This document shows, in pieces, positions 3,597 to 58,035 of a DNA stretch of 64,000 bases. The DNA is taken from the NCBI GenBank assembly GCA_963780445.1, contig CAWACC010000008.1, positions 12,523 through 76,522 of the forward strand, given 5' to 3'. Source of the DNA: an uncultured Parachlamydiaceae bacterium. GTDB taxonomy: Bacteria; Chlamydiota; Chlamydiia; Chlamydiales; Parachlamydiaceae. The position numbers and the translations under genes are program-made. The notes below the pieces were generated by a model. The model was not told the DNA's origin. It ran no database searches and saw nothing but the letters and a program-made list of their open reading frames with translations. Position 1 is the stretch's first letter. The number at the start of each line of letters is the position of its first letter.

Positions 3597-5522
3597 TTAT
3601 TCTGCTTTTTCAATTTTTAACTTTCGTAAAGGATCAAATGGCTTGCCCCCTCCCTCGAAACTATAGTGATACCACTCGAGGAAATTAAGACGCAAGCCAT
3701 GTATAGTTCCACCCATGATGCATAACAGCATATTGACTCCATGTCCTGCGATTATAATGGGAAGGGCCAGGGCAAAATTCAATCCTGCGGCCAGATCATT
3801 GGTTGTAGCGGCCAACATAGCTCCGGACAGGCCCAATGCATACAGACGCAAATACGACATCGCATCGGCAAAGAGCTGTCCAATATGCATAGGCTCCAAA
3901 AGTCCCGACCATTTATGCTGAAAGATGGCGATGACTGTGGCCAATCCGGCTCCAATGTAAATCATATACAAACCCGTTTCGGGAGCAGTTTCCTTATTCA
4001 CTCCAAAAATAAAATGTATCAAGGAGGTGGCATGCAGGTAATAAGGGATATAAAGATACGCTCCTATGATGAATATAATCCACCCAATGGAGCTTTTATT
4101 CCGGTTTATATAACGCAGCATGGACAGGATGATATGGACAACTCCAATAAAGATGGCCATTTCTAACAAAATATTATCTGCAAATCGGTTATACAACGTA
4201 TACTCTTTTTTGCCATGGACATCTTCAACCGCTGTTTTTAAGAACACGTCCGGATCTTTAACATTAGCCAGAGCAGGAAATTTATGTACCCATTCCTTCC
4301 AGTCTTCATCGTGATGTTGAATAATATACTCGACTTTTTTCTCTACCATCCATTGCATGAGGGAGATTTTCCTTAGAGGATTGTCCATGCCCACCGTTAT
4401 TCCGAAAAAGGAGGTAGTTAGAATGCCCCAAACAAAAACCGCCCCTGCCAAAACAGTCAGTAAATTCAATACTCGCCACCCCGTCTTAGTAAAGGAAAAC
4501 CTGTACCTGGCATACAAAGCCGCAGCCAAAAAAATCAGCCCATATCCCGCATCACCTACAATAAAGGCAAAAAAGAAGGAAAAAAATACGAGCACCCATA
4601 AAGAAGGGTCTTTATCAGTATGAGAAGGCGTATCGTAAATATTCACAAGATCTTCACCTAATCGGGCTGCTCCTTCATTTTCAAGATAGGTCGGTATGGT
4701 GTCATCGGGGCGAATGGCCACCTGTTCGACATGGACGTCCCCTTCTTTGATCAGCTTATGCAAATCTCCGAGTTTAGTCTGTGGGACCCATCCTTCGATA
4801 GCAAAAAGCTGCCCATCGAGGGCAGGCGTGGTCTGGGCATTTGCGTCGTGCAGATGGTAGGTATTGAGCTTATAGATCAGATGATGGTGAAGGAATTCGT
4901 TATATTTAGCGTAACCTTTAAGCCTCTGCTCAATGGAATGGATTTCTTCCGCAATTTCTTTAAGGCGTTTTGACAATTCACCGAGAGGCTTATGGATGAC
5001 TATTTCAGCCATTTTAGGGTAGGTTTTCGGTCCCGGATTCAACGCCATGAAGTAATCCAGCGAAATGTCAGATCCGACATAAACAATTTCAGGTGGAAGG
5101 GCCTGGAGGTTTATGGACCCGACTCTAGCGCAAAAAAACTGCATTTTTCTCTGAGTTTCTTTTTCAAGCTGCTGGCGCGATTCTGCTGAGAAATCCCCAA
5201 AGACTTCCATGCGGGCCATGTCTTGCTTGATGACTCTTTCCTCTTCATATAAGGCCTCTTCAGTTTTTTTTAGCTGAAGGATTTTCAACACTAGCCCGTC
5301 AGCCAGCGCATATTCTTCGATCTCTTCCTGTTCTATGGGGGGGAGGCCTTTGACAATTTTAATAGCTTTCAGCAGATCCTGCAATTCTTCGGGTACGTGG
5401 CCTACTTTTGCGGGCTTTGTCTTGATGAAATGGATGATCCCATGATCCTGGGCTTTTTGAAAAAAATCTTCCCTTTCCCCTTCAAACCCTACAAAAAGAT
5501 ATTTGTTTACATCATATCGCAT
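3597..5522 (-). CDS. atpI: V-type ATPase subunit I (membrane stator/a-subunit)
   Basis: 641 aa with a soluble coiled N-terminal half and a multi-TM C-terminal half. It sits between atpD and atpK, as in chlamydial V-ATPase operons. Confidence 0.85.
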   Translation of the reverse strand: MRYDVNKYLFVGFEGEREDFFQKAQDHGIIHFIKTKPAKVGHVPEELQDLLKAIKIVKGLPPIEQEEIEEYALADGLVLKILQLKKTEEALYEEERVIKQDMARMEVFGDFSAESRQQLEKETQRKMQFFCARVGSINLQALPPEIVYVGSDISLDYFMALNPGPKTYPKMAEIVIHKPLGELSKRLKEIAEEIHSIEQRLKGYAKYNEFLHHHLIYKLNTYHLHDANAQTTPALDGQLFAIEGWVPQTKLGDLHKLIKEGDVHVEQVAIRPDDTIPTYLENEGAARLGEDLVNIYDTPSHTDKDPSLWVLVFFSFFFAFIVGDAGYGLIFLAAALYARYRFSFTKTGWRVLNLLTVLAGAVFVWGILTTSFFGITVGMDNPLRKISLMQWMVEKKVEYIIQHHDEDWKEWVHKFPALANVKDPDVFLKTAVEDVHGKKEYTLYNRFADNILLEMAIFIGVVHIILSMLRYINRNKSSIGWIIFIIGAYLYIPYYLHATSLIHFIFGVNKETAPETGLYMIYIGAGLATVIAIFQHKWSGLLEPMHIGQLFADAMSYLRLYALGLSGAMLAATTNDLAAGLNFALALPIIIAGHGVNMLLCIMGGTIHGLRLNFLEWYHYSFEGGGKPFDPLRKLKIEKAE

Positions 5523-10050: not shown

Positions 10051-10404
10051 TAATGGATCCACAGTCATTTCCCCTGCAGGGGAAAATATAATCCCAGTCA
10101 TTTCCCCGGCAGGGGAAAATATAATCCCAGTCATTTCCCCGGCAGGGGAAAACGTGAATAGCCCCGTGTGAAGCGAGCGTAAGCGAGCGGAACGCGGGGT
10201 TATTGCATAATAAATATTGCGCCCCGGTAGGGGCGCAAGAATCCTTCCTTTCATCCAAATATTGTTTTGTGTTTTGTGTTTCGTGCGCCCCTGCCGGGGC
10301 GCAATCTTTACTATGCTGCAAACCCCGTGTTCCGCTCGCTGACGCTCGCTTCACACGGGGCTATTCACGTTTTCCCCTGCCGGGGAAATGACTGTGGACC
10401 CATT
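10051..10404. repeat. Roughly 355-bp nested palindromic element inside the V-ATPase operon
   Basis: Left terminus TAATGGATCCACAGTCATTTCCCCTGCAGGGGAAAA pairs with right terminus TTTTCCCCTGCCGGGGAAATGACTGTGGACCCATTA. Inner arms 10152-10201 and 10321-10369 are reverse complements, as are 10202-10240 and 10281-10321. Each arm contains GC-rich mini-hairpins (TTCCCC-TGCA-GGGGAA; GCGCCCC-GGTA-GGGGCGC). Confidence 0.9.
10062..10153. repeat. Three tandem 33-bp units (CAGTCATTTCCCCNGCAGGGGAAAATATAATCC) in the left arm only
   Basis: Unit starts at 10062, 10095 and 10128 give an exact 33-bp period. The right arm carries a single copy. Confidence 0.9.
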
Positions 10405-10421
10405 AAAATTCTGTTTTATCA

Positions 10422-22945: not shown

Positions 22946-23070
22946 TTCTTCACCACTGAGACACTGAGATCACTGAGAAAATATGAGATAATTGAGAGGG
23001 ATTATAATTTAGGCATCTATCTCATTATCTCATACCTTCTCAGTGATCTCAGTGGCTCAGTGGTGAAGAA
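22946..23070. repeat. Family-A (CACTGAG) palindromic element, copy 2
   Basis: TTCTTCACCACTGAGACACTGAGATCACTGAGAAAATATGAGATA ... TCTCATACCTTCTCAGTGATCTCAGTGGCTCAGTGGTGAAGAA. Confidence 0.9.
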
Positions 23071-23097: not shown

Positions 23098-24135
23098 ATG
23101 AACTCCCACCTTTTTAAAAATAAAACCGTCCTGATCACAGGGGGTACCGGCAGCTTTGGACGCTCTTTTGCCAAACGGCTCCTGACTGAAAATGAATGCA
23201 CCAAAGTGATCATCTTCAGCAGGGATGAATGGAAGCAATGGGAAATGCAACAATCAGATCCCATTTTCAAGCACCCCAAAATCCGCTATTTCTTGGGAGA
23301 CGTCCGTGACTCCACCCGCCTGATGCGGGCCTTCCACGAGGTCCACTATGTAATCCATGCCGCGGCCCTGAAGCAGGTGCCTGCTGCTGAATACAATCCC
23401 GGCGAATTCATCAAAACAAATGTATTGGGCGCCATGAACATCATCGAGGCCGCCATCGATTGCCAGGTGGAAAAAGTGATTGCCCTCTCTACAGACAAAG
23501 CCGTCAACCCCATCAACCTATATGGAGCCACCAAACTGTGCTCAGACAAACTGTTTATAGCCGGCAATGCCTATGTGGGCGCCAGAGGAATTCCCCGATT
23601 TTCAGTCGCCCGATATGGCAATGTTTCCGGAAGCCGCGGCAGCATTATCCCTTTTTGGGCCGGGCTGCTGGCAGAAGGAGCCGCATCGCTGCCCATTACA
23701 GACAGCCGCATGACACGTTTCTGGATCACCCTGGACCAAGCCATCGATTTTGTAGAAAAATGCTTTCAGGAAATGCGGGGAGGTGAAATTTTTGTACCGA
23801 AAATCCCCAGCATCCACATTGAAGACCTGGCAGAAGCCATGGCTCCTGGATTACCTAAAACCTATTGCGGAATCAGGGACGGAGAAAAATTGCATGAACT
23901 CATGATCAGCTCCGACGACGCAAGGCATACCATCGAATTCTCCGATCATTATGTCATCATTCCCGAAGCCTATATCCATGATCTCCATAAGCTCGCCAAA
24001 TTCTTGGATGGGCGGGAAGGTCAATTCACTCCGGAAGGCTTCTGTTATACCTCGAATAACAACACCCAGTGGCTGAAGGTTGAAGAACTGCGAAAACTAG
24101 TCAAAAGGGAAGGGACTAAAGGCAAAGGGACATAG
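23098..24135 (+). CDS. UDP-N-acetylglucosamine 4,6-dehydratase-like SDR (PseB/FlaA1/CapD family)
   Basis: 345 aa with Rossmann motif VLITGGTGSFG and catalytic YGATK. The last roughly 10 codons (REGTKGKGT*) are encoded by the family-B repeat. Confidence 0.8.
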   Translation: MNSHLFKNKTVLITGGTGSFGRSFAKRLLTENECTKVIIFSRDEWKQWEMQQSDPIFKHPKIRYFLGDVRDSTRLMRAFHEVHYVIHAAALKQVPAAEYNPGEFIKTNVLGAMNIIEAAIDCQVEKVIALSTDKAVNPINLYGATKLCSDKLFIAGNAYVGARGIPRFSVARYGNVSGSRGSIIPFWAGLLAEGAASLPITDSRMTRFWITLDQAIDFVEKCFQEMRGGEIFVPKIPSIHIEDLAEAMAPGLPKTYCGIRDGEKLHELMISSDDARHTIEFSDHYVIIPEAYIHDLHKLAKFLDGREGQFTPEGFCYTSNNNTQWLKVEELRKLVKREGTKGKGT

Positions 24136-24217
24136 GGACATAAGGGACCTAAGGGACTAAAGGGACAAAATTCATAATTTTATGTCCCTTAGGTCCCTTA
24201 GGTCCTTTAGGTCCCTT
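24105..24217. repeat. Family-B (AAGGGAC 9-mer) palindrome, copy 1
   Basis: The left arm has about 6 units of NNAAGGGAC, the loop is AAAATTCATAATTTTA, and the right arm is TGTCCCTTAGGTCCCTTAGGTCCTTTAGGTCCCTT. Confidence 0.9.
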
Positions 24218-25541: not shown

Positions 25542-26462
25542 ATGCAAAGTGTAAATACAAGTTTACCTATAGTTTATCCATCATTTCAAAACCTGGAAAG
25601 TGGATGGAACATGCTTCCTCAAGATCTATCAAACATTATTTTTACCTACGCTGGCGCGGAAAATCTTCCTTCGCTAGCTTTAACATGCAAAAATTGGTCC
25701 GTTCTAGCTGATAATAAAGAATTTAGAGAAAATATACGGCCTGCCGGAATTTTTGGGACTAAGGAATGGAAAGAAACTTTTGATGTCAATGCCGGTGAAG
25801 AACCTATTTTGCCAAGATGCGCCTACGCGGAAATGAAAGATGATAAGTTTCAGATCATTTTAGTTCCTGAAAAAGTTAAGGATGAGAAGGATGAAATTAA
25901 TCTATATAGTAAAGAAGGGATAGATAAACTATTAAAAAAAACAAAAAAATTAACTTTAAGGACAAATTGCGGTTTTATTTCAAATTCCTTCAAAATAGTC
26001 AAACCTGAGAAAACACACTGGCTATCTATTGCAAAAGACTATATAGATGGCGGTGATTATTACAATGGACAATTCCATGACATAGCAAAAAGACCGGTAT
26101 CTGTACCAACCGGATTTTTCGGGTGTGATGTAAAACTTATACAAGCAAAAAAAGGAGAAGACATTTCTAGGCTCATAGATACTATAATAACTCGTAGTAT
26201 ACGATATATCACAGAGCCTGTTTATGGACAAAAATTTTTAGTTGTTAAAGAAAAAAGAGATTCTAAAACTCATATATGCATCCATATTGATGGCAAGCTA
26301 TTGTGCGTTGGACATCCTGAAAATTATTCTTATGAAAATTGGACCTATAATATTACTTTGGCGAAAAGATATTTTGCTTCTGAACAAAATGCAATGGAAA
26401 TCTGTGATCCTGATAATGCAATTAAAAAAACGACCTTAACGACCTTAACGGTACGTCCTTAA
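25542..26462 (+). CDS. F-box-like protein with a C-terminal domain of unknown function (paralog family 1, copy 1)
   Basis: 306 aa with an F-box-like segment LPQDLSNIIFTYAGAENLPSLALTCKNWSVLADNKEFRENI. Nearly identical to 26700..27593 and related to 59724..60581. The last 13 aa (KKTTLTTLTVRP) are read from family-C/D repeats. Confidence 0.65.
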   Translation: MQSVNTSLPIVYPSFQNLESGWNMLPQDLSNIIFTYAGAENLPSLALTCKNWSVLADNKEFRENIRPAGIFGTKEWKETFDVNAGEEPILPRCAYAEMKDDKFQIILVPEKVKDEKDEINLYSKEGIDKLLKKTKKLTLRTNCGFISNSFKIVKPEKTHWLSIAKDYIDGGDYYNGQFHDIAKRPVSVPTGFFGCDVKLIQAKKGEDISRLIDTIITRSIRYITEPVYGQKFLVVKEKRDSKTHICIHIDGKLLCVGHPENYSYENWTYNITLAKRYFASEQNAMEICDPDNAIKKTTLTTLTVRP

Positions 26463-27593: not shown

Positions 27594-27662
27594 AAAACGA
27601 CTTTAACGACCTTCACGACGATAATAAAAATGTCGTTAAGGTCGTTATTGTCGTTTGTCGTT
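27594..27662. repeat. Family-C (AACGAC) palindrome
   Basis: AAACGACTTTAACGACCTTCACGACGAT / loop / GTCGTTAAGGTCGTTATTGTCGTTTGTCGTT. Confidence 0.85.
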
Positions 27663-28502: not shown

Positions 28503-28665
28503 AAAGGGACGAAAGGGACCTAAAGGACATAAGGAACCTAAAGGACATAAGGGACAAAACGACAAACAACGATAACGACCTGAACGACAATAACGACCTT
28601 AACGACAAACGACTTGTTTATTGTCGTCGTTAAAGTCGTTATTGTCGTTAAAGTCGTTTGTCGTT
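28503..28665. repeat. Family-B direct array (28503-28555) abutting a family-C palindrome (28556-28665)
   Basis: AAAGGGACGAAAGGGACCTAAAGGACATAAGGAACCTAAAGGACATAAGGGAC, then AACGAC-unit arms around the loop TTGTTTATT. Lies immediately downstream of the 5S rRNA. Confidence 0.9.
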
Positions 28666-28678
28666 AAATAAAAAAAAA

Positions 28679-34472: not shown

Positions 34473-34623
34473 AAGGGTAAGGGACCAAAGGGACGAAAGG
34501 GACCAAAGGGACCAAAGGGACGAAAGAGACATAAGGGACATAAGGGACATACAAAATATGCTGTGATTCCTTACGCCCTTTCGTCCTTTATATCCCTTTT
34601 GCCCCTTATGTCCCTTTGGTCCC
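34473..34623. repeat. Family-B (AAGGGAC 9-mer) palindrome, largest copy
   Basis: Eight consecutive 9-bp units (GTAAGGGAC CAAAGGGAC GAAAGGGAC CAAAGGGAC CAAAGGGAC GAAAGAGAC ATAAGGGAC ATAAGGGAC), a loop, then degenerate inverted units ...CCCTTATGTCCCTTTGGTCCC. Confidence 0.92.
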
Positions 34624-38269: not shown

Positions 38270-39163
38270 ATGTTTTGCAAACGCCTGAAAAAAGAAATTG
38301 CTCCCGGCACTTTCATTTCCACTCCCGCGCGCCTCATGGCTATATTGCAATTGTGCCTGGCTTTTACGGTCCTGGCATGGCAGGCGGGTTATCCCTTTAT
38401 GGGAGAGCTGTTTGAAATAAAATCAAAATTGCTGGTCTATGACTATGTGATGGGGGTGAACAATGCAACCTATGCAGAACAGTTTTCGAATCTGCCCGAA
38501 AAGAAGAAAGAAGAAATTTTAAGGGAATACCAGACCTTAAAAGCTCATTTGGGCCGCCCTTTTGTGGATAAAGCGCTAGATTCTGTAGAAAGGGTATTTT
38601 TCAGCCTATCCCCCTTCAAATTATTGTGGATATTCTTCTCCATCATTATTCCCATTTTATTGCTTAAGAAGGTCGAAGGGGCCGCTTCAGTGATCTGGCT
38701 CCTTCCCTTGACCACCATGGTATTTATTGTCCATAACAGATGGTATGGAGAGGTGGTTCCTCTTTCCAAGGATACACAGCTTTTTCCTACTGAAGAAATC
38801 ATTGTTAATAACTATTTGAGGCATCCTTTGAGTTCCGATTTAAACCTGCAGGAGAAGCAGCTTCGCAATGGCTGGGAACTGTATTTGATTGAGGAATGGG
38901 CAAAAGAAACTCCTTCTTCGGATGCCTTCCAATTCACATTACAGAAAGAAAAAGGCGATTTTGCATTTAATCTTGCCCGGCTTTCCGGGCTGGAAATCAA
39001 ACCCTATAAATCATTCAATAATACACAGGAATCCTATCCTGTTTTGGCTCTCTATTTATTTTGGAACCTATCTTTTGCGTTAGTGGTGGGATCGGCTCTC
39101 CAGACTCCGCAGACAAGGCAAACAATACAAATTGTGTACCATTCTTCACCACTGAGCCAGTGA
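38270..39163 (+). CDS. Hypothetical integral membrane protein
   Basis: 297 aa with several TM helices. The start is 3 nt after the upstream stop, suggesting translational coupling. The last codons (SSPLSQ*) lie inside the family-A repeat arm. Confidence 0.5.
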   Translation: MFCKRLKKEIAPGTFISTPARLMAILQLCLAFTVLAWQAGYPFMGELFEIKSKLLVYDYVMGVNNATYAEQFSNLPEKKKEEILREYQTLKAHLGRPFVDKALDSVERVFFSLSPFKLLWIFFSIIIPILLLKKVEGAASVIWLLPLTTMVFIVHNRWYGEVVPLSKDTQLFPTEEIIVNNYLRHPLSSDLNLQEKQLRNGWELYLIEEWAKETPSSDAFQFTLQKEKGDFAFNLARLSGLEIKPYKSFNNTQESYPVLALYLFWNLSFALVVGSALQTPQTRQTIQIVYHSSPLSQ

Positions 39164-39270
39164 GATCACTGAGAAGGTTTGAGATAGGGAGGATAGATGC
39201 CTATTGATCAACTGTAACATGGCATTTGACGTACGTCCTTAAAAAGTTATGGCAAAGCAAAGCATGAAAA
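39143..39270. repeat. Half family-A element (39143-39200) plus a partial inverted family-D fragment (39228-39270)
   Basis: TTCTTCACCACTGAGCCAGTGAGATCACTGAGAAGGTTTGAGATAGGGAGGATAGATGCC has no right arm. GACGTACGTCCTTAAAAAGTTATGGCAAAGCAAAGCATGAAAA is the reverse complement of the family-D right arm. Confidence 0.8.
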
Positions 39271-44122: not shown

Positions 44123-45577
44123 ATGAATATTAAAAAAATTCCTATAACCATTGCTGAAGGAGATGGCATTGGCCCAGAAATTATGAACGCAACTTTGTTG
44201 ATTCTGGAAACTGCCAAAGCCCCGCTTGATATTCATCGCGTGGAAATAGGGGAAAAAGTGTATAAGCGAGGTGAAAAGACCGGCATTGAACCTGCGACAT
44301 GGGATGCGATCCGCCGGACAAAGGCTTTTTTAAAAGCTCCCATAACCACTCCGCAAGGAGGAGGATTCAAAAGCCTGAATGTGACTATCCGGACTTCTCT
44401 TGGGCTTTATGCCAATGTGAGGCCCTGTATTTCTTACAGCCCCTTTGTGGAATCAAGGCATCCCAAAATGAATGTCGTCGTCGTAAGGGAAAACGAGGAG
44501 GACCTCTATACAGGCATAGAATACCGCCAGACACCGGATACCTACCACGCCTTGAAAATCATCACCAGGCCAGGATGTGAAAAGATCGTCCGTTATGCGT
44601 TTGAATATGCCAGGGCGAACAAAAGAAAAAAGGTGACCTGTTTTACAAAAGACAACATCTTAAAACTATCCGACGGGCTTTTTCACAAAATCTTTGACGA
44701 AATCGCAAAAGAGTACCCTGATCTGGAAAATGAACATTGGATTGTGGATATCGGCGCTGCCAAGCTGGCGGATACTCCCGAAGTCTTTGATGTGATCGTC
44801 ATGCCCAATTTATATGGAGATATCCTCTCCGATGTGGCCGCCCAGATTGCCGGCTCTGTGGGACTGGCCGGATCGGCCAACATTGGAGAACACGGGGCCA
44901 TGTTTGAAGCCATTCATGGATCAGCTCCCAGGCGGGCAGGGCAGAACCTGGCAAATCCCTCGGGACTCCTGCTGGCGGCAGTACAAATGCTGGTACATTT
45001 GGGACTTGCTGAAACAGGGACTCTAATCCACAATGCCTGGTTGAAAACCTTGGAAGATGGCATTCATACCTATGATATTTTCAAACCCAATACAAGCAAG
45101 GAAAAGGTAGGCACAAAAGAATTTGCGAAAGCTGTAGCTGCCCGATTGGGCCAAATCCCGCATACGCTCAAGGCGGTTCATTATGCCGCACCTAACATGA
45201 GCAAACACACACCTTCGCAGCCATCTTCCCAAGCTCCAAAGATAACAAAGGAACTTGTTGGCATCGACGTTTTTATTGAATCTCATGGAGATGTAGAATC
45301 CCTGCAAAAAAAATTGTCCTCCCTGAAAAACAAGGATTTCAAACTCACGATGATCAGCAACCGCGGAGTGCGCGTATGGCCGGAAAAGATGCCTGAGACC
45401 TCCTGCAGCGATACCTGGAGGTGTCGTTTCATGAAGAAAGAAAACAAACTCCATTTAAAGCAGTTAGCGGAGCTTATTCAAAATCTGGCAGATGCCCAAG
45501 TGGATTTTGTCAAAACAGAACATCTGTACACTTTTGATGGAGTGCCGGGGTATACGGTAGCCCAAGATGAACAATAA
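44123..45577 (+). CDS. icd: Isocitrate dehydrogenase (isocitrate/isopropylmalate DH family, long form with a C-terminal extension of about 130 aa)
   Basis: 484 aa with the family signature NLYGDILSDVAAQIAGSVGLAGSANIG. The stop codon TAA is the first base triplet of the family-B repeat (TAAGGGAC). Confidence 0.8.
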   Translation: MNIKKIPITIAEGDGIGPEIMNATLLILETAKAPLDIHRVEIGEKVYKRGEKTGIEPATWDAIRRTKAFLKAPITTPQGGGFKSLNVTIRTSLGLYANVRPCISYSPFVESRHPKMNVVVVRENEEDLYTGIEYRQTPDTYHALKIITRPGCEKIVRYAFEYARANKRKKVTCFTKDNILKLSDGLFHKIFDEIAKEYPDLENEHWIVDIGAAKLADTPEVFDVIVMPNLYGDILSDVAAQIAGSVGLAGSANIGEHGAMFEAIHGSAPRRAGQNLANPSGLLLAAVQMLVHLGLAETGTLIHNAWLKTLEDGIHTYDIFKPNTSKEKVGTKEFAKAVAARLGQIPHTLKAVHYAAPNMSKHTPSQPSSQAPKITKELVGIDVFIESHGDVESLQKKLSSLKNKDFKLTMISNRGVRVWPEKMPETSCSDTWRCRFMKKENKLHLKQLAELIQNLADAQVDFVKTEHLYTFDGVPGYTVAQDEQ

Positions 45578-45786
45578 GGGACTAAAGGGACCAAAGGAAC
45601 ATAAAGGTTTACCACTGAGCCAGTGAGATCACTGAGAATGTATGAGATAATTGAGAGGAGTCTGAAACATATGTTAAAAGACGGACTTAATAGTATAGGA
45701 GTTGAATCTAACTCGCCCTATCTCATACCTTCTCTGTGATCTCACTGGCTCAGTGGTAAACCATGTCTTTTATGTCCCGTCTTTCA
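45575..45786. repeat. Composite element: family-A copy 4 (45608-45760) nested between family-B arms
   Basis: TAAGGGACTAAAGGGACCAAAGGAACATAAAGG | TTTACCACTGAGCCAGTGAGATCACTGAGAATGTATGAGATAATTGAGAGGAGTCTGAAACATATGT ... CTCACTGGCTCAGTGGTAAACC | ATGTCTTTTATGTCCCGTCTTTC. Confidence 0.9.
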
Positions 45787-46449
45787 TTGCTTTTCAACCT
45801 CGAATTTTTTGAATAATTCCCTGATGGCATTCCCTCGATCATTATCAAATTCATCCGATTTTATTATTCTTGCTATCGTGATTGTATCATAATCGATTTT
45901 TGCATTCATATCTGCTCCACTTTTCAGCAAAAATTCAATGATAGAAAGAGGCATAGACCTATTATATATATAATTAAGACATGCCGCAAGAAGAGGTGTC
46001 ACTCTACAATAAGTACGAGTATGTCCGCGTTTACAGTTCAAACTTTGCGGAATTAGCCTCACGATATCTTTGATATCCTTTTCGGTTTCTTGAGTATATG
46101 CCTTAATGGAATGATCGCCAAATGGGAGATTCCATCCGGTAAAAACAGCATCGAGAAGATGAGGATTTACATCACCGTCTTGTTCTCCATATTGCTCATA
46201 ATATTCGTTATATACAGAATATTTATTTACAAGCTCGTGGATTCTTTTTAGATCTTTCATTTTTTCAGAAAATACTACTGATGTTTCTTTGTTAATTTTG
46301 GCAATGTTGTTTATTGTGTTGGCATAATTTTTTATTTTGCAACTTGTAATCATTGTTGGTTGATCAAGAATGGCAATTTTTAAAATAATTGAATTGACCT
46401 CTGAAGGCAATTCTGGAAATAAGGGAAATGATAAATTTAAGTTGGACAT
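45784..46449 (-). CDS. F-box-like / ankyrin-repeat protein (paralog family 2, copy 1)
   Basis: 221 aa with N-terminus MSNLNLSFPLFPELPSEVNSIILK (tentative F-box-like LPxE...IL motif) and a C-terminal ANK-like segment TPLLAACLNY...IIEFLLKSGADMNAKI. One of three tandem paralogs. Confidence 0.6.
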   Translation of the reverse strand: MSNLNLSFPLFPELPSEVNSIILKIAILDQPTMITSCKIKNYANTINNIAKINKETSVVFSEKMKDLKRIHELVNKYSVYNEYYEQYGEQDGDVNPHLLDAVFTGWNLPFGDHSIKAYTQETEKDIKDIVRLIPQSLNCKRGHTRTYCRVTPLLAACLNYIYNRSMPLSIIEFLLKSGADMNAKIDYDTITIARIIKSDEFDNDRGNAIRELFKKFEVEKQ

Positions 46450-46551
46450 GATGTCTCCTATTATATTAGATTTTTGAACACGATTTTATTGAGGCATATG
46501 CCCGAGGTATTCCTCGAAAATTTTTTGAGCTAATTCTAACCGGGCCTTCTC

Positions 46552-47229
46552 CTAAATTTTTTCAAACTCGTATTTTTTGAATAATTCCCTGATGGCATGC
46601 CCTCGATCTGTATCAAATTCATCCGATTTTATCATTCTTGCTATCGAGATTGCACTACCATATTTACCAGAATCGATTTTTGCATTCATATCTGCTCCAC
46701 TTTTCAGCAAAAATTCAATGATAGAAAGAGGCCTAGGCGCATGATATTTATAATTAAGACATGCCGCAAAAAGGGGCGTCACTTTTTGACACATACGAGT
46801 ATATCCATGTTTACAGTTCAAACTCTGAGGAGTTAACCTCACGATATCTTTAATATCATTTTCGGTTTCTTGAGTATATTCCTGAATCGAATGATCGCCA
46901 AATGGGAGATTCCATCCGGTTAAAACAGCATCGAGAAGATGCGGATTTACATCACCGTCTTCTTCTCCATATTGCTCATAATCTCTGTTATATATAGTAT
47001 ATTTATTTACAAGTTCGCGAATTCTTTTTAAATCTTTCATTTTTTCAGAAAGCACTTCGAAGGTTGTTTTGTTAATCGAAGCAATGTTGTTTATTTTGTT
47101 GGCATAATCTTTTATTTTGCCACTTGTAATTATTGTTGGTTGATCAAGAATGACATTTTTTAAAATAATTGAATTGACCTCTGAAGGCAATTCTGGAAAT
47201 AAGGGAAATGATAAATTTAAGTTGGACAT
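46552..47229 (-). CDS. F-box-like / ankyrin-repeat protein (paralog family 2, copy 2)
   Basis: 225 aa, nearly identical at the N-terminus to copies 1 and 3. It ends at a TAG where copy 3 has TGG (Trp). Confidence 0.6.
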   Translation of the reverse strand: MSNLNLSFPLFPELPSEVNSIILKNVILDQPTIITSGKIKDYANKINNIASINKTTFEVLSEKMKDLKRIRELVNKYTIYNRDYEQYGEEDGDVNPHLLDAVLTGWNLPFGDHSIQEYTQETENDIKDIVRLTPQSLNCKHGYTRMCQKVTPLFAACLNYKYHAPRPLSIIEFLLKSGADMNAKIDSGKYGSAISIARMIKSDEFDTDRGHAIRELFKKYEFEKI

Positions 47230-47253
47230 GATGTCTCCTATTATATTAGATTT

Positions 47254-47315
47254 ACACGATGTGCGAGTTTGTCTTGCAGCCTTTCCAGGCTGTCAAGAAA
47301 AACTCGCACGCCGCG
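47254..47315. mobile_element. 62-bp palindromic (MITE-like) insertion flanked by an 8-bp direct duplication TTAGATTT
   Basis: The paralogous spacer at 46466-46480 reads TATTAGATTTTTGAACACG without interruption. Here the spacer reads TATTAGATTT[ACACGATGTGCGAGTTTGTCTTGCAGCCTTTCCAGGCTGTCAAGAAAAACTCGCACGCCGCG]TTAGATTTTTGAACACG. The insert folds as a long hairpin (GTGCGAGTTT.../...AAACTCGCAC). Confidence 0.6.
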
Positions 47316-47335
47316 TTAGATTTTTGAACACGATT

Positions 47336-48106
47336 TTATTGAGGCATAAGCCTGAGGTATTCCTCGAAAATTTTTTGAGCTAATTCTGGAGGTATTTCCG
47401 AAAGGATGGATTGCGGATCTTTCTTTTGTGCCAGAAATAGGAACCGGGCCTTTTCCCAAATTTTTTCAAACTTATATTTTTGGAGCAATTCCAAAATAGC
47501 ATGTTGTCGAGTGGCATCCATTTCTGTATAATTCTCTTCTACTAAGTAAGATGCAGATTCCTTCCCGGCGCAGGTTGCATAAAGATTCGCTCCACTTTTC
47601 AGCAAAAATTCAACGATGGAAACAGGTATTTTTTCGTTGATACATGCAACAATCAAAGGAGGAGTTTTAATGGTGAGACGCGTTTGTCCCTCATTACAAT
47701 TCAAACTTTGAGGAGTAAGCCTGACTATATCTTTGATATCCTTTTCGGTTTCTTGAGTATAAACCCCAATGGAATGTTTGCCACCAGGTAAATCCCATCC
47801 GGTAAAAACAGCATCGAGAAGATGGTGATTTATGAAACGGTCTCCAAATAGCTCATAACATTCGTTATATACAGTATATTTATTTATAAGTTCGTGGATT
47901 CTTTTTAGATCTTTCATTTTTTCAGAAAAGACTTCTGAGGTTTCTCTGTTAATCTTGGCAATGTTGTTAATTTTAATGGCACAATCTTTTATATTTTTAC
48001 TTGTAAATATTGTCGGTTGATCGAAAATGACATTTTTTAAAATAATTGAATTGACCTCTGAAGGCAAATCTGGAAATAAAGGAATTGATAAATTTAAGTT
48101 TGACAT
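47336..48106 (-). CDS. F-box-like / ankyrin-repeat protein (paralog family 2, copy 3, with a C-terminal extension)
   Basis: Start reassigned to MSNLNLSIPLFPDLPSEV to match its paralogs (the track ORF starts 22 codons upstream). It has an extra C-terminal tail ...KIWEKARFLFLAQKKDPQSILSEIPPELAQKIFEEYLRLMPQ containing a second F-box-like LxxIPPELxxKIF motif. Confidence 0.6.
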   Translation of the reverse strand: MSNLNLSIPLFPDLPSEVNSIILKNVIFDQPTIFTSKNIKDCAIKINNIAKINRETSEVFSEKMKDLKRIHELINKYTVYNECYELFGDRFINHHLLDAVFTGWDLPGGKHSIGVYTQETEKDIKDIVRLTPQSLNCNEGQTRLTIKTPPLIVACINEKIPVSIVEFLLKSGANLYATCAGKESASYLVEENYTEMDATRQHAILELLQKYKFEKIWEKARFLFLAQKKDPQSILSEIPPELAQKIFEEYLRLMPQ

Positions 48107-48250
48107 AACGTCTCCTGTTTCTATATTTTTGAATACGATATTAAATTTATAATAAATAAAAATAATCGTCAAGTATAAAAAAACATATATAAAAAAACGA
48201 TATTATGGTATGATTAGTTTTGCCTTTAATATTAAAGTTAAGGAGACAAC

Positions 48251-49711
48251 ATGAATCAAAATGTTTTTATAAGTAAATTTAATTCACTTAATCAGGCAGT
48301 TGATAGTGGTGAAATAATAAAAATTGCTAAAAATGGCGAATTAAAACACAAATGTGTGTCCGGGAATTTTTTCGAAAGACTCCGTGGACGCGTGGTCCGT
48401 GTTATTAAAGAAATATCGAGTTTTCTGACTGGAGAAGATTTACTGGCCAATGTCCGTATTAAAAACATAGCGCAGAAAACTTTTGATCTATGTAATAAAT
48501 ACTCTGAAGAACATAACGTGTCCTTAAGCCAACAAGAAGCTGATTCGGCTATTAAATTTTTGGAAAAGCTAAAAAATAAAGCCAAATCTGATATCTCAAA
48601 ACTGAATGTGGATATTTGTGTATTAAAGATACAGGCTCTTATGCTACAGCAAATTAACAATGAAGCGAACAAAACCCCTCCACCCGTGAGGCCGCAATTG
48701 CCGGATAACTTGCCTTCATTTGGCAGCACTACAAAAACAATTATATCTGATACTGCTGCAGCAAATACACCCACAATTACCACGACGACGACAACTCCAG
48801 CAACGCCAATAATTCCTACCCCCATCCCAACCCCACCCCCAACAGGAGCTATGCTACCCCCACCGCCTCCCCCTATGGGAATGCTATCTTCAAAAACCAC
48901 ATTGACACCTGAACAACAATGGAAACATGACCAAGAGACCAAGTTAAAAAGGAATCAACTGGAAAGGGCCAATCCAAACGCGTTTTACTGCCAGATACCC
49001 GTGGATGCCTTAACTAAAAGCCTGTTAACTGAACACTTGAATACACTCGGTTTCCTCAAAATAAATTCAAATCTCAACAAAGAAGAAAAAAAATATCTGG
49101 AAGAAAAGGAAAAAGAACTCAAATCCCGAATGGAATCCCGAAAAGAACCGATGAGCCAAAACAGCTCTGATTTTAAATACCAACTTTCTAGACTGACGAA
49201 TGAAGAACTTTCCATATTGATAGCCATATATTTCTCTACCCTAGAGAAAAAGGAAGAGAATTCCATCTATAACGAATTTAAATATCTGGTGGAAGGGAGT
49301 TTGAATAATTCGCCTGCATTGCTGTCAGGGCCGATAGGCCAACTTTTTATGGCAAATAAAACGCAATGGATTGAATTGTTAACTAGCAGTGGCGGCTGTT
49401 TAAGCGCTTTTCTCAAACTGTTAGAGGCAAGAATGAAAGGAACCATCCAGGAGCCGCAATATAAAGCCCAACCCTACGACCCCGCGAAGGTACGTCGCCA
49501 GGAAAAAGAGAAAACTCTACCTAACAATACTGCAACAACTGAAGGAAAACCAGAAATAAAGGATGAAATCATCCATCATAAGCCTTTGCATCATGTGGAT
49601 AAACAAGCGCAAGATCCAGTAGAAAAAACCCCTGAAGAAAATGAAGTCGAACGGATAAGAAGACTAATTAAAGAGCAAAACAAACGCGCCAACGGAAAAC
49701 CAAACGGCTAA
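48251..49711 (+). CDS. Proline/threonine-rich hypothetical protein (candidate effector)
   Basis: 486 aa. The central tract is TPPPVRPQLPDNLP...TPTITTTTTTPATPIIPTPIPTPPPTGAMLPPPPPPMGML, and the flanks are charged and helical. No enzymatic motif recognised. Confidence 0.5.
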   Translation: MNQNVFISKFNSLNQAVDSGEIIKIAKNGELKHKCVSGNFFERLRGRVVRVIKEISSFLTGEDLLANVRIKNIAQKTFDLCNKYSEEHNVSLSQQEADSAIKFLEKLKNKAKSDISKLNVDICVLKIQALMLQQINNEANKTPPPVRPQLPDNLPSFGSTTKTIISDTAAANTPTITTTTTTPATPIIPTPIPTPPPTGAMLPPPPPPMGMLSSKTTLTPEQQWKHDQETKLKRNQLERANPNAFYCQIPVDALTKSLLTEHLNTLGFLKINSNLNKEEKKYLEEKEKELKSRMESRKEPMSQNSSDFKYQLSRLTNEELSILIAIYFSTLEKKEENSIYNEFKYLVEGSLNNSPALLSGPIGQLFMANKTQWIELLTSSGGCLSAFLKLLEARMKGTIQEPQYKAQPYDPAKVRRQEKEKTLPNNTATTEGKPEIKDEIIHHKPLHHVDKQAQDPVEKTPEENEVERIRRLIKEQNKRANGKPNG

Positions 49712-49715
49712 AAGT

Positions 49716-49903
49716 AAAAGGGACCAAAGGGACATAGTTTACCACTGAGCCACTGAGATCACTGAGAAGGTATGAGATAATTGAGAGGAGTCTGAAACAT
49801 ATGTCAAAAAGACAGACTAAAACAGAGCCTAACCCTCTCTATCTCATACCTTCTCAGTGATCTCAGTGGCTCAGTGGTAAATTATATCCCTCTGGTCCCT
49901 TAT
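49716..49903. repeat. Composite element: family-A copy 5 (49738-49882) nested between family-B arms
   Basis: AAAAGGGACCAAAGGGACATAG | TTTACCACTGAGCCACTGAGATCACTGAGAAGGTATGAGATAATTGAGAGGAGTCTGAAACATATGT ... CAGTGATCTCAGTGGCTCAGTGGTAAATT | ATATCCCTCTGGTCCCTTAT. Same orientation and core as copy 4. Confidence 0.9.
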
Positions 49904-49946
49904 TTTTTTCTTTTCAATATCATCTTCTCTTTTATATAATGTGACC

Positions 49947-57989: not shown

Positions 57990-58035
57990 AGGGCATAAGG
58001 GACAAAAACTAATTTGATGTCCCTTATGTCCCTTT
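57990..58035. repeat. Family-B hairpin immediately upstream of the 58055 gene's SD
   Basis: AGGGCATAAGGGACAAAAACTAATTTGATGTCCCTTATGTCCCTTTA, followed by TCTTTTAGGAGGTAAATTATG. Confidence 0.85.

What the first reader, a model, noticed from the sequence alone, without database searches (positions are those of the whole stretch)
49738..49882. Family A: 120-150-bp MITE-like palindromes with CACTGAG-repeat termini (5 copies in 64 kb)
Copies lie at 15657-15801, 22946-23070, 39143-39200 (left half only), 45608-45760 and 49738-49882. All share roughly 40-bp terminal inverted repeats: (T)TACC or TTCACC, then ACTGAGCC ACTGAGAT CACTGAGAA GGTATGAGAT. Each terminus holds three CACTGAG direct repeats spaced 8-9 bp apart, and the variable core is 40-70 bp. 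No transposase is visible in the window. One copy per roughly 13 kb is a very high density for a bacterial genome. A half copy and two terminal subtypes (TTCTTCACC versus TTTACC) point to turnover.
Basis: seen in the sequence. Interest (0 to 1): 0.65.

Follow-up and report, generated by a model that had tools for sequence, protein, structure and literature searches.

The report
Nuclease-linked palindromic repeats, ORF-less copies
These five ~110-150-bp hairpin-forming repeats are gene-less copies of a very widespread, apparently undescribed selfish-looking element whose full form carries a small 'GxxExxY' nuclease gene between the same repeat arms, which gives a large orphan protein family its first clear genomic context.

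Summary
In detail: there are four full palindromic copies and one half copy, and the arm pattern matches 9 times against 0 expected. The 'MITE of an unseen transposase' reading is only partly right. No window copy has a target-site duplication. Each full copy carries two different inner arms, A and B, which match the two ends of ORF-bearing elements in related Chlamydiae. Those elements enclose a 126-130-aa GxxExxY protein (PF13366/TIGR04256, PD-(D/E)XK nuclease superfamily). The link is general. In at least 40 of 78 diverse metagenomic GxxExxY loci, and in cultured Bacteroides, Bernardetia and Sphingomonas, the gene sits between inverted arms that read TTCACC plus three heptads at 8-9-bp spacing. 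The heptad differs between lineages but is homogenised within an element. Only 1 of 80 loci has a transposase nearby. In some Chlamydiae the arms lie inside IS903-like ends (GGCTTTGTTG) and those copies move with 9-bp duplications; the window copies lack these ends. Three of the four full window copies sit at the centre of terminator-like 9-mer palindromes. Soil metagenome depth suggests tens of copies per genome. An 83% relative has an empty orthologous site. The closest analogues are REPIN-RAYT systems and ORF-bearing 23S rRNA intervening sequences. That the nuclease mobilises the copies is inferred, not shown.

The parts
15657..15801 (+). Full ORF-less copy. The A-type arm is on the left and the B-type arm on the right, so the lost ORF would have read on the + strand.
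   Evidence: Lies between an MFS symporter gene and an unknown 873-aa gene.
15797..15844 (.). 9-mer array (GTTAAGGTC)n abutting the right end of copy 15657. A degenerate inverted counterpart lies at about 15637-15656.
22946..23070 (-). Full ORF-less copy with TTCTTCACC-type termini, B arm on the left and A arm on the right. It lies 28 bp upstream of pseB.
39143..39240 (+). Half copy: an A-type arm (39143 to about 39195) followed by a putative remnant of the GxxExxY 3' end (GCCTATTGATCAACTGTAAC, translating as LLINCN). There is no right arm. Host ORF 38270-39163 ends at a TGA inside the second heptad.
   Evidence: The same arm-to-ORF-C-terminus joint recurs in metagenomes. The copy is identical in the 95-98% nucleotide-identical strain L136 (icd protein 99% identical).
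45608..45760 (-). Full ORF-less copy between the convergent genes icd and an unknown 221-aa gene.
   Evidence: Present in strain L136 and absent from the orthologous gap of the 83% relative L137/L138.
45576..45607 (.). 9-mer array (AAGGGACTA)n on the left flank of copy 45608. Its inverted counterpart lies at about 45761-45785.
49738..49882 (-). Full ORF-less copy; this is the finding's own coordinates. Both heptad arms have no mismatch to the family pattern. It lies between an unknown 486-aa gene and argS.
   Evidence: Short-read assemblies break at it.
49710..49909 (.). Extended palindrome: the copy plus inverted 9-mer flanks (GGGACCAAAGGGACATAG / TATATCCCTCTGGTCCC) followed by a T-run. It folds as a hairpin of about 90 bp.
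   Evidence: 70-nt arms, 91% complementary. (-128.2 kcal/mol, z = -16.7).
24110..24217 (.). Context, not a member: a 9-mer palindrome with no heptad core and a tight apex, at a gene 3' end. Equivalent sites are 27596-27655, 28573-28658 (just 3' of the 5S rRNA gene) and 34479-34623.

Best explanation
Family A consists of internally deleted, ORF-less copies of a palindromic, selfish-looking element. The full form is about 430-650 bp. It carries one small gene for a GxxExxY protein (PF13366/TIGR04256, PD-(D/E)XK nuclease superfamily) between two inverted arms. Each arm starts (T)TCACC or TTTACC and holds three heptads at 8-9-bp spacing; the heptad is CACTGAG in this lineage. The genome is a soil Parachlamydiaceae-like chlamydia. 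SHOWN: (1) the window copies keep the two different inner arms (A next to the ORF start, B next to the stop) of ORF-bearing chlamydial elements; (2) the arm-gene-arm architecture recurs across phyla; (3) the copies have no target-site duplication; (4) three of the four full copies sit exactly at the centre of terminator-like 9-mer palindromes; (5) the family is multi-copy and lineage-specific. INFERRED: the six heptads are binding sites for the encoded nuclease. I infer this because the heptads are homogenised within and between arms while differing between lineages. One or a few ORF-bearing copies per genome would then supply the nuclease in trans. Nuclease cleavage at or near a palindrome centre, followed by copying from another element (a homing-like or recombinational process rather than DDE transposition), would spread the ORF-less hairpins. 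This parallels REPINs and their RAYT. Once inserted, a copy simply lengthens an existing hairpin at a gene's 3' end, so it is tolerated. A separate route is shown only for relatives: where the arms lie inside IS903-like ends, an IS5-family transposase moves the chimaera with 9-bp duplications.
For: Each full copy has one A and one B inner arm, 89-95% identical over about 45 nt to ORF-bearing elements L051, L043, L049 and L025. GxxExxY-only elements are bounded by CACTGAG arms in Chlamydiae-like contigs: L049 3907-4440, L050 and L051. The ORF is PF13366 (E = 3.7e-40) and TIGR04256 (E = 3.4e-42). Residues D83, E93 and K95 are invariant in both alignments; reading them as the catalytic PD-(D/E)XK triad is my assignment. 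Generality: of 78 diverse loci, 40 or more have an inverted repeat bracketing the gene that scores above direct-orientation and shuffled controls. Both ends read TTCA|CC(A/G)CNGAG in 35 aligned elements. The same holds in cultured Bacteroides finegoldii, Bernardetia and Sphingomonas; in Sphingomonas the element lies between fabD and fabG. Only 1 of 80 loci has the IS5-like transposase nearby. Heptad-type concordance is 0.50-0.54 within and between arms, against a null of 0.13-0.15. No TSD is found in the window copies. Nesting in 9-mer palindromes has P of about 3e-6, or about 0.002 if only intergenic DNA is counted. In soil metagenomes the arms reach 90-345x, the GxxExxY 3' half 2.8-4.8x (similar to the single-copy flanks), and the transposase region 0x at >=85% identity. 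The orthologous site is empty in an 83% relative. The protein family comprises 28,328 clusters at 50% identity.
Against: No ORF-bearing copy lies in the 64-kb window, and none is proven for this genome. Nuclease activity, heptad binding and any role in mobility are untested. The structure model was poor (pLDDT 61.7) and gave no fold match. ORF-bearing copies look stable rather than mobile: one identical protein sits at one locus across many samples, and several elements sit at orthologous loci. No precise filled-versus-empty junction was obtained. Many chlamydial relatives of this same CACTGAG family do carry IS903-like ends with perfect 9-bp duplications, so a DDE transposase demonstrably moves some members. 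Two window ends (39143 and the left end of 22946) faintly resemble those ends. The origin of the 9-mer arrays is unexplained; they could be products of the element rather than its targets.
Confidence: 0.6

Rival explanations
1. The copies are classical MITEs of an IS5-family, IS903-group insertion sequence. They were inserted by a DDE transposase with 9-bp duplications, and their outer 20-nt inverted repeats and duplications have since decayed or been overwritten.
For: In related Chlamydiae and marine contigs the CACTGAG arms are the subterminal part of ends that read GGC(T/G)TTGTTG plus 10 nt. The composite carries an IS5-family transposase (NF033579, PF13737 and PF01609), and perfect 9-bp duplications flank L003, L015 (a 141-bp MITE) and L025. 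Most short chlamydial copies keep recognisable remnants of those ends. A plain 92-bp MITE with IS903-type ends and a 9-bp duplication exists in Protochlamydia naegleriophila.
Against: None of the four full window copies has the GGC...TTGTTG end or any duplication, although the adjacent 26-nt heptad block of copy 49738 matches the family pattern without mismatch on both arms. The 20 nt outside its two arms match each other (16 of 20, by eye on the listing) but not the IS end, which is not what independent decay would give. The transposase region has zero depth in the metagenomes that hold this genome. Outside this sub-lineage, 79 of 80 GxxExxY elements have arms but no transposase and no IS ends.
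Confidence: 0.2
2. The copies are not mobile now. They are host-kept structural or regulatory hairpins, such as long terminators or RNase III processing sites, that were multiplied by recombination among similar intergenic palindromes. GxxExxY would be a passenger or an unrelated neighbour.
For: Copies sit at gene 3' ends inside terminator-like palindromes followed by T-runs. The closest described analogue, the Coxiella 23S rRNA intervening sequence, is an RNase III substrate with three tandem heptamers (PMC4990558). ORF-bearing elements are strongly co-oriented with their neighbours: 55 of 63 upstream and 49 of 62 downstream. They also persist at fixed loci. Tandem unit number varies between the orthologous loci L005 and L021, which fits recombination or slippage.
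Against: Arm mismatches show no G-U over A-C bias on the ORF strand (65 versus 58), and the arms of ORF-bearing elements are only 82% complementary, so a strictly kept RNA helix is not supported. Homogenisation of the three heptads within an arm is not needed for a hairpin. Many distinct flanks and insertion inside a fab operon indicate insertion events. The relative at 83% has an ordinary short hairpin at the same site.
Confidence: 0.15

Closest known systems
REPIN-RAYT systems (REP doublets and their REP-associated tyrosine transposase; named from my own knowledge of Nunvar 2010 and Bertels & Rainey 2011)
   Same: In both, short hairpin-forming inverted doublets are dispersed in intergenic DNA in tens to hundreds of copies. 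A single small nuclease gene is flanked by the same repeat in inverted orientation. There are no target-site duplications. The gene-bearing copy persists at one locus. The enzyme's role in spreading the repeats is inferred rather than shown.
   Different: Here the protein belongs to the PD-(D/E)XK superfamily (PF13366), not to the HUH/Y1 IS200-like family. The arms are three heptads at 8-9-bp spacing with a TTCACC terminus, not REP hairpins with a GTAG or CGTC tag. The ORF-less copies are internal deletions of the gene-bearing element and keep its two distinct inner arms.
ORF-bearing 23S rRNA intervening sequences (Coxiella and Leptospira IVS with the S23p four-helix-bundle ORF; PMC4990558)
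   Same: Both are stem-loop elements of about 430 bp bounded by inverted repeats, with a small ORF in the loop and three tandem heptamers at the ORF-proximal 5' end (GACAGAT in Coxiella, compared with CACAGAG or CACTGAG here). Both sit at the centre of a pre-existing hairpin, show a sporadic distribution that suggests transfer, and have an unknown mobility mechanism.
   Different: The IVS lies inside the 23S rRNA, whereas the window's 23S gene is uninterrupted. The ORF family differs. The IVS heptamers are contiguous with a 7-bp period. Whether S23p elements share these arms was not tested.
MITEs of IS5-family, IS903-group insertion sequences
   Same: Both have terminal inverted repeats, small size and multiple copies. 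Chlamydial relatives of this very family carry GGCTTTGTTG ends, 9-bp duplications and an IS5-family transposase.
   Different: The window copies lack those ends and the duplications. In the wider class the arms occur without any transposase.
Small palindromic repeats of host-restricted or naturally competent bacteria (Neisseria Correia elements and Rickettsia palindromic elements; from my own knowledge)
   Same: Both are 100-150-bp palindromic intergenic repeats at high density with no known enzyme of their own. Correia elements are RNase III substrates.
   Different: Correia elements have TA duplications and no linked ORF-bearing form. There is no sequence similarity, and none matched in Rfam.

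Membership tests
Classical MITE (deletion derivative of a DDE-transposase IS) | Terminal inverted repeats, small size and no coding capacity | tested here: met
   Arms of 38-47 nt are 92-95% complementary, and the elements are 125-153 bp.
Classical MITE (deletion derivative of a DDE-transposase IS) | Direct target-site duplication flanking each copy | tested here: not met
   All outer offsets from 0 to 25 nt were scanned for 9-mers; the best result was 3-4 mismatches of 9 in all four full copies. Inspection by eye showed no shorter consistent duplication.
Classical MITE (deletion derivative of a DDE-transposase IS) | An autonomous IS with the same termini that encodes a transposase | tested here: inconclusive
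   A composite with an IS5-family transposase exists in relatives, but its termini lie 20 nt outside the arms and are absent from the window copies. The window has no transposase.
Classical MITE (deletion derivative of a DDE-transposase IS) | Many dispersed copies and presence/absence differences between relatives | tested here: met
   Arm depth is about 30-100 times that of the flanks, with many distinct flanks. The orthologous site is empty in the 83% relative.
IS5 family, IS903-group MITE | Terminal GGC(T/G)TTGTTG inverted repeat | tested here: not met
   It is absent from all nine window arms, and present in L003, L015, L025, L033 and L041-L048.
IS5 family, IS903-group MITE | 9-bp target-site duplication | tested here: not met
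   None is found in the window. Perfect 9-bp duplications occur in L003, L015 and L025 at the GGC terminus.
IS5 family, IS903-group MITE | A cognate transposase present in the same genome or community | tested here: inconclusive
   There is no hit in the window, and depth is zero at >=85% identity in three soil metagenomes that hold the genome. The full genome was not available.
REPIN-RAYT system | Dispersed inverted repeat doublets that form hairpins | tested here: met
REPIN-RAYT system | A nuclease gene flanked by the same repeat in inverted orientation | tested here: met
   Seen in relatives and across phyla. Not seen within the window itself.
REPIN-RAYT system | The enzyme is an HUH/Y1 (IS200/IS605-like) RAYT | tested here: not met
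   The protein matches PF13366 PDDEXK_3 and TIGR04256 GxxExxY.
ORF-bearing 23S rRNA intervening sequence | Located at the tip of helix 25 or 45 of the 23S rRNA | tested here: not met
   The window's LSU rRNA matches the full model without an insert: 2941 nt against a model of 2925. All copies are intergenic.
ORF-bearing 23S rRNA intervening sequence | A stem of terminal inverted repeats enclosing a small ORF, with tandem heptamers at the ORF-proximal end | tested here: met
   Seen in ORF-bearing relatives and compared with the description in PMC4990558. This is a resemblance of architecture only.
ORF-bearing 23S rRNA intervening sequence | The ORF belongs to the S23p / four-helix-bundle family | tested here: not met
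   All ORFs found between arm pairs are GxxExxY.
ORF-bearing 23S rRNA intervening sequence | Excision of the stem by RNase III | not testable with these tools
   No RNA runs could be listed for this sequence.
GxxExxY-associated heptad-arm element (class proposed here) | A (T)TCACC or TTTACC terminus followed by three like heptads ending in (G/A)AG at 8-9-bp spacing, on both arms in inverted orientation | tested here: met
   Window arms are shown, and the class consensus.
GxxExxY-associated heptad-arm element (class proposed here) | Distinct A (ORF-start side) and B (ORF-stop side) inner arms | tested here: met
   Each full window copy has one of each.
GxxExxY-associated heptad-arm element (class proposed here) | A GxxExxY ORF between the arms (the autonomous form) | tested here: not met
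   The window copies are ORF-less. Only a putative remnant follows the arm at 39143. They are therefore filed as non-autonomous members.

The most novel reading that the evidence does not exclude
GxxExxY proteins and their heptad-repeat arms would form a previously unrecognised class of prokaryotic selfish element, driven by a PD-(D/E)XK nuclease rather than a transposase. The class would span Chlamydiota, Bacteroidota, Pseudomonadota and many uncultured lineages (28,328 protein clusters). It would insert without target duplication, often at the centre of existing hairpins or in tight gaps inside operons, and it would shed ORF-less hairpin copies such as family A. ORF-bearing 23S rRNA intervening sequences, whose origin and mobility have been open questions since about 1990, would be a sister branch of the same class.
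Probability: 0.3. Interest if true: 0.85.

Novelty: new variant of a known kind. Interest (0 to 1): 0.72.

Why it matters
PF13366/TIGR04256 is a very large protein family: 28,328 clusters at 50% identity. The 2012 PD-(D/E)XK catalogue lists its function as 'Unknown' with 'multiple transfers'. Three full-text searches found no paper that links it to repeats. Showing that the gene is habitually enclosed by lineage-specific but internally homogenised heptad arms, and that ORF-less arm pairs multiply to tens of copies in a chlamydial genome, gives the family a concrete and testable role: a nuclease that recognises its own flanking repeats. It also offers an analogue of REPIN-RAYT systems built on a different nuclease fold. 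The architecture is shared with the ORF-bearing 23S rRNA intervening sequence: a stem, three heptamers, a small ORF and a position at a hairpin centre. That makes the old question of how such sequences arise directly testable. In practical terms, these repeats break short-read assemblies of environmental Chlamydiae. They also supply stop codons and long hairpins at gene ends, which affects annotation.

Tried and rejected
1. My first guess, from the heptamer- and nonamer-rich sequence, was a cyanobacterial MITE. I rejected it because the genome scan hit mostly Parachlamydiaceae/Chlamydiae MAGs and the icd relatives include a Parachlamydia sp..
2. Rfam gave nothing at the gathering threshold. 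The permissive search returned only a sub-threshold MIR2118 hit (44.8 bits against a gathering score of 85), which reflects a generic hairpin.
3. The TSD scan of the window copies found none.
4. An RNA-level helix test found no bias: G-U 65 against A-C 58.
5. Structure prediction for GxxExxY gave no information. There was no PDB sequence hit, the AlphaFold model had pLDDT 61.7, and Foldseek found no match with E <= 0.001.
6. A homolog search with the 486-aa gene upstream of copy 49738 returned nothing, so that search was wasted.
7. No RNA-seq runs could be listed for the window sequence. Annotated-record and encoding-contig loci could not be sent to the read tools.
8. Comparing all held chlamydial loci with each other gave no filled-versus-empty pair. 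The icd approach then gave one empty orthologous site, but it is too diverged to show a precise junction.
9. I looked for other cargo, such as S23p, between arm pairs in the held loci and found none. This is a biased sample, because the loci were chosen by GxxExxY.
10. I tested whether an identical GxxExxY protein occurs at several loci. It occurred at one locus across many samples, so ORF-bearing copies look stable.
11. Literature searches for the sequence strings and for GxxExxY, PDDEXK_3 and intervening-sequence-protein combinations found no prior description.
12. I considered deriving the 9-mer arrays from the IS903-like end or from repeated 9-bp duplications. The orientation of the AACGAC arrays does not fit, so this is left unexplained.

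Full report
OBSERVATION. The 26-nt arm pattern CACTGAGNCACTGAGATCACTGAGAA matches nine times with at most three mismatches, against 0.00 expected in shuffles. That is two inverted arms in each of 15657-15801, 22946-23070, 45608-45760 and 49738-49882, and one arm at 39143. The arms are 38-47 nt long and 92-95% complementary. The window also holds an rRNA operon. It has no detectable transposase or GxxExxY gene.

WHOSE GENOME. An exact-pattern scan of one genome per species returned 38 loci, most from Parachlamydiaceae, Parachlamydiales or Chlamydiae MAGs. A few came from MAGs labelled Bacteroidetes, Desulfuromonadales, Geopsychrobacteraceae and Bacteriovorax. The window's icd gene has a 99% homolog on a soil-metagenome contig, and its relatives at 73-83% include one named Parachlamydia sp.. 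An ankyrin-repeat protein lies next to the half copy. I infer a soil Parachlamydiaceae-like organism. This is an inference, not a demonstrated placement.

WHAT THE COPIES DERIVE FROM. In one Parachlamydiaceae MAG, arm pairs 0.9-1.3 kb apart enclose a 126-aa ORF and a broken transposase. The ORF matches PF13366 (PDDEXK_3, E = 3.7e-40) and TIGR04256 (GxxExxY, E = 3.4e-42). Other chlamydia-like contigs carry the ORF alone between the arms, for example L049 3907-4440, which is 534 bp. Beyond the heptads the two arms differ: an A-type inner arm lies next to the ORF start and a B-type next to the stop. Each full window copy has exactly one A and one B arm, 89-95% identical over about 45 nt to those elements. 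That is the signature of internal deletion of an asymmetric parent. The half copy is an A arm followed by GCCTATTGATCAACTGTAAC (LLINCN), against the ORF's C-terminal LLINFN. The same arm-to-C-terminus joint recurs in soil metagenomes at depth 7-8. The host ORF 38270-39163 reads into this arm and stops at a TGA in the second heptad.

THE ASSOCIATION IS GENERAL. Eighty diverse GxxExxY loci (53-73% identity) were fetched from metagenomes. In at least 40 of the 78 that could be tested, an inverted repeat brackets the gene and scores well above direct-orientation and shuffled controls. Nearly all these arms read (T)TCACC followed by three heptads. Thirty-five aligned elements end on both sides with (A/T)TTCA|CC(A/G)CNGAG, span 429-833 bp (about 430-650 bp apart from one of 833 bp), and have no IS-type outer repeat and no duplication. 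The heptad differs between lineages: CACTGAG, CACAGAG, CACGGAG, CGCGGAG, CGCCGAG, CGCAGAG and CACGAAG. It is homogenised within an element, with concordance of 0.50-0.53 within an arm and 0.51-0.54 between arms, against 0.13-0.15 for heptads from different loci. Spacer patterns are mirrored between the arms. Only 1 of the 80 loci has the IS5-like transposase nearby. Cultured organisms show the same arrangement. In Bacteroides finegoldii the element starts 1 nt after the radA stop codon and ends 6 nt before the next gene's start. In Bernardetia it lies between ade and a mannose-1-phosphate guanylyltransferase gene. In Sphingomonas parapaucimobilis it lies between the fabD stop codon and the fabG ribosome-binding site. 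The Bacteroides record also has an ORF-less copy. The ORF is co-oriented with its upstream neighbour in 55 of 63 cases and with its downstream neighbour in 49 of 62. The protein family comprises 28,328 clusters at 50% identity with E <= 1e-3.

THE TRANSPOSASE LAYER. In the chlamydial MAG and in marine contigs, the true ends lie 20 nt outside the heptads and read GGC(T/G)TTGTTG. I recognise this from my own knowledge as the IS903 inverted repeat. The enclosed transposase matches NF033579 (IS5 family), PF13737 and PF01609. Its nearest plasmid relatives are a Protochlamydia naegleriophila IS5-family gene and enterobacterial IS5-family elements such as ISEc35. Perfect 9-bp duplications sit exactly at the GGC terminus in L003, L015 (a 141-bp MITE) and L025, and one-mismatch duplications in L016 and L033. 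So some members of the CACTGAG family are moved by a DDE transposase. The window copies have neither the outer repeat nor any duplication. In three soil metagenomes that hold this genome, the transposase region has zero depth at >=85% identity. The GxxExxY 3' half is there at 2.8-4.8x, similar to the single-copy flanks, and the arms reach 90-345x. A plain 92-bp MITE with IS903-type ends and a 9-bp duplication, but no heptad arms, exists in P. naegleriophila. This makes it plausible that the chimaeric ends arose when a heptad-arm element entered the centre of such a palindrome. That step is inference.

WHERE THE WINDOW COPIES SIT. Copies 15657, 45608 and 49738 lie exactly at the centre of inverted arrays of 9-mers, (GGGACNNAA)n or (AACGACNNN)n. 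The same arrays occur without a heptad core at four other gene 3' ends, one of them just downstream of the 5S rRNA gene. The chance of three of four random insertions landing there is about 3e-6, or about 0.002 if only intergenic DNA is counted. With its flanks, copy 49738 folds into a hairpin of about 90 bp (-128 kcal/mol, z = -16.7) followed by a U-run. Several metagenomic copies have the same kind of flank. Whether the arrays are targets or by-products of the element is unresolved.

DISPERSAL AND TURNOVER. Short-read contigs break at the copy. Arm depth is about 30-100 times flank depth, with many different flanks. A strain 95-98% identical at the nucleotide level carries copies 39143 and 45608 unchanged. 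In a relative with 83% identical icd, the orthologous convergent gap holds no arms and no 9-mers, only an ordinary short hairpin; its downstream gene is a 44% identical homolog. Three further relatives show none near icd. The sites are too diverged to give a base-precise empty junction.

MECHANISM. Shown: the copies derive from GxxExxY elements, lack duplications, are nested in palindromes, are multi-copy and are lineage-specific. Inferred: the six homogenised heptads are binding sites for the encoded nuclease, which would act in trans on ORF-less copies, as in the REPIN-RAYT model. Its D83, E93 and K95 residues are invariant. Spread would be by cleavage and copying at palindromes rather than by DDE transposition. 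Several results argue against a purely RNA-level role. Arm mismatches show no G-U bias (65 against 58), and the arms of ORF-bearing elements are only 82% complementary. Several results argue against high mobility of the ORF-bearing form. It sits at orthologous loci in related organisms, and one identical protein occupies one locus across many samples. Orthologous Bacteroidetes loci differ only in the number of tandem ORF-less units.

COMPARISON WITH KNOWN SYSTEMS. The closest functional analogue is the REPIN-RAYT system, but the enzyme there is an HUH nuclease, so membership fails. The closest described architecture is the ORF-bearing 23S rRNA intervening sequence. The Coxiella IVS is a 428-nt stem-loop at the tip of helix 45, with an S23p ORF, three tandem heptamers (GACAGAT) at its 5' end and RNase III cleavage at the first repeat (PMC4990558). 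The ORF family and the location differ, and I could not test whether S23p elements share these arms. Rfam has no matching family. The 2012 PD-(D/E)XK catalogue lists PF13366 as 'Unknown', and full-text searches found no prior description.

VERDICT. The feature is real. It is a non-autonomous member of a widespread, apparently undescribed class of GxxExxY-associated palindromic elements. 'MITE-like' describes its form but not its likely mechanism. I rate it a new variant of a known kind, with interest 0.72.

Noticed in passing
window 24110-24217, 27596-27655, 28512-28668, 34479-34623; also 26429-26450 and 58017-58034: Inverted arrays of 9-mers of two kinds, (GGGACNNAA)n and (AACGACNNN)n, form palindromes at gene 3' ends. 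One lies just 3' of the 5S rRNA gene and one upstream of the rRNA operon. They are absent near icd in relatives at 75-83% identity. Their origin is unexplained; they could be terminators, targets of the heptad-arm element, or its by-products.
   Followed up: partly
window 10051-10405: This is a different complex palindrome. It has 74-nt arms that are 97% complementary (10128-10201 / 10321-10394), nested shorter inverted repeats, and a 33-bp tandem repeat (ATCCCAGTCATTTCCCCGGCAGGGGAAAATATA, 2.9 copies at 10057-10152). It is probably another repeat family.
   Followed up: no
window 39143-39163: Host ORF 38270-39163 reads through the element terminus and the first heptad and stops at a TGA inside the second heptad. 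Its last ~6 codons and its stop codon are therefore supplied by the repeat.
   Followed up: yes
window 45784-48172: Three adjacent minus-strand genes (221, 225 and 278 aa) look like tandem paralogs; cross-matches to strain L136 are 87-90% identical at the nucleotide level. The first has a 44% identical homolog next to icd in the 83% relative.
   Followed up: no
window about 40235 compared with L136 2621-3084: The window and a strain 95-98% identical to it differ by an indel of about 460 bp in the ankyrin-repeat gene region. The gene is called as 620 aa in the window and 244 aa in L136.
   Followed up: no
L142 3436-3527 (Candidatus Protochlamydia naegleriophila plasmid pPNK, NZ_LN879503.1): A plain 92-bp palindromic MITE with IS903-type ends (GGCTGTGTTGAATAAAT) and a perfect 9-bp duplication (CATTTTGCA), but no heptad arms. 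A further matching end lies at 4644-4661.
   Followed up: partly
L050 513-653 (same place as L049 about 4415-4555): A GxxExxY element ends 17 bp from a bacterial small SRP RNA gene (Rfam RF00169, 46.9 bits), so it is inserted right beside a structured RNA gene.
   Followed up: no
L005 6668-7038, L021 6037-6300, L020 6815-7095, L051 3582-3958, L017/L019: ORF-less units also occur as head-to-tail tandem arrays with periods of 113-128 bp. Some ends carry partial duplications of the terminus plus the first heptad, for example L038 and L051. The orthologous loci L005 and L021 differ in unit number.
   Followed up: partly
L029 2608-3460 (MAG labelled Bacteriovorax sp.): This contig is 68% identical at the nucleotide level to the window's pseB gene and carries a CACTGAG palindrome. 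It may be a chlamydial contig binned into the wrong MAG.
   Followed up: no
proteins P0121-P0134: The best-scoring representatives of the GxxExxY family are proteins of about 270-295 aa with two matched stretches. They are either tandem two-domain fusions or read-through of adjacent copies.
   Followed up: no
window 45623-45651 and 49753-49781: The B-type arm contains a sigma-70-like pair, (C/G)TGAGA, a 17-nt spacer and GATAAT with an upstream TG, reading into the core. This may be chance.
   Followed up: no
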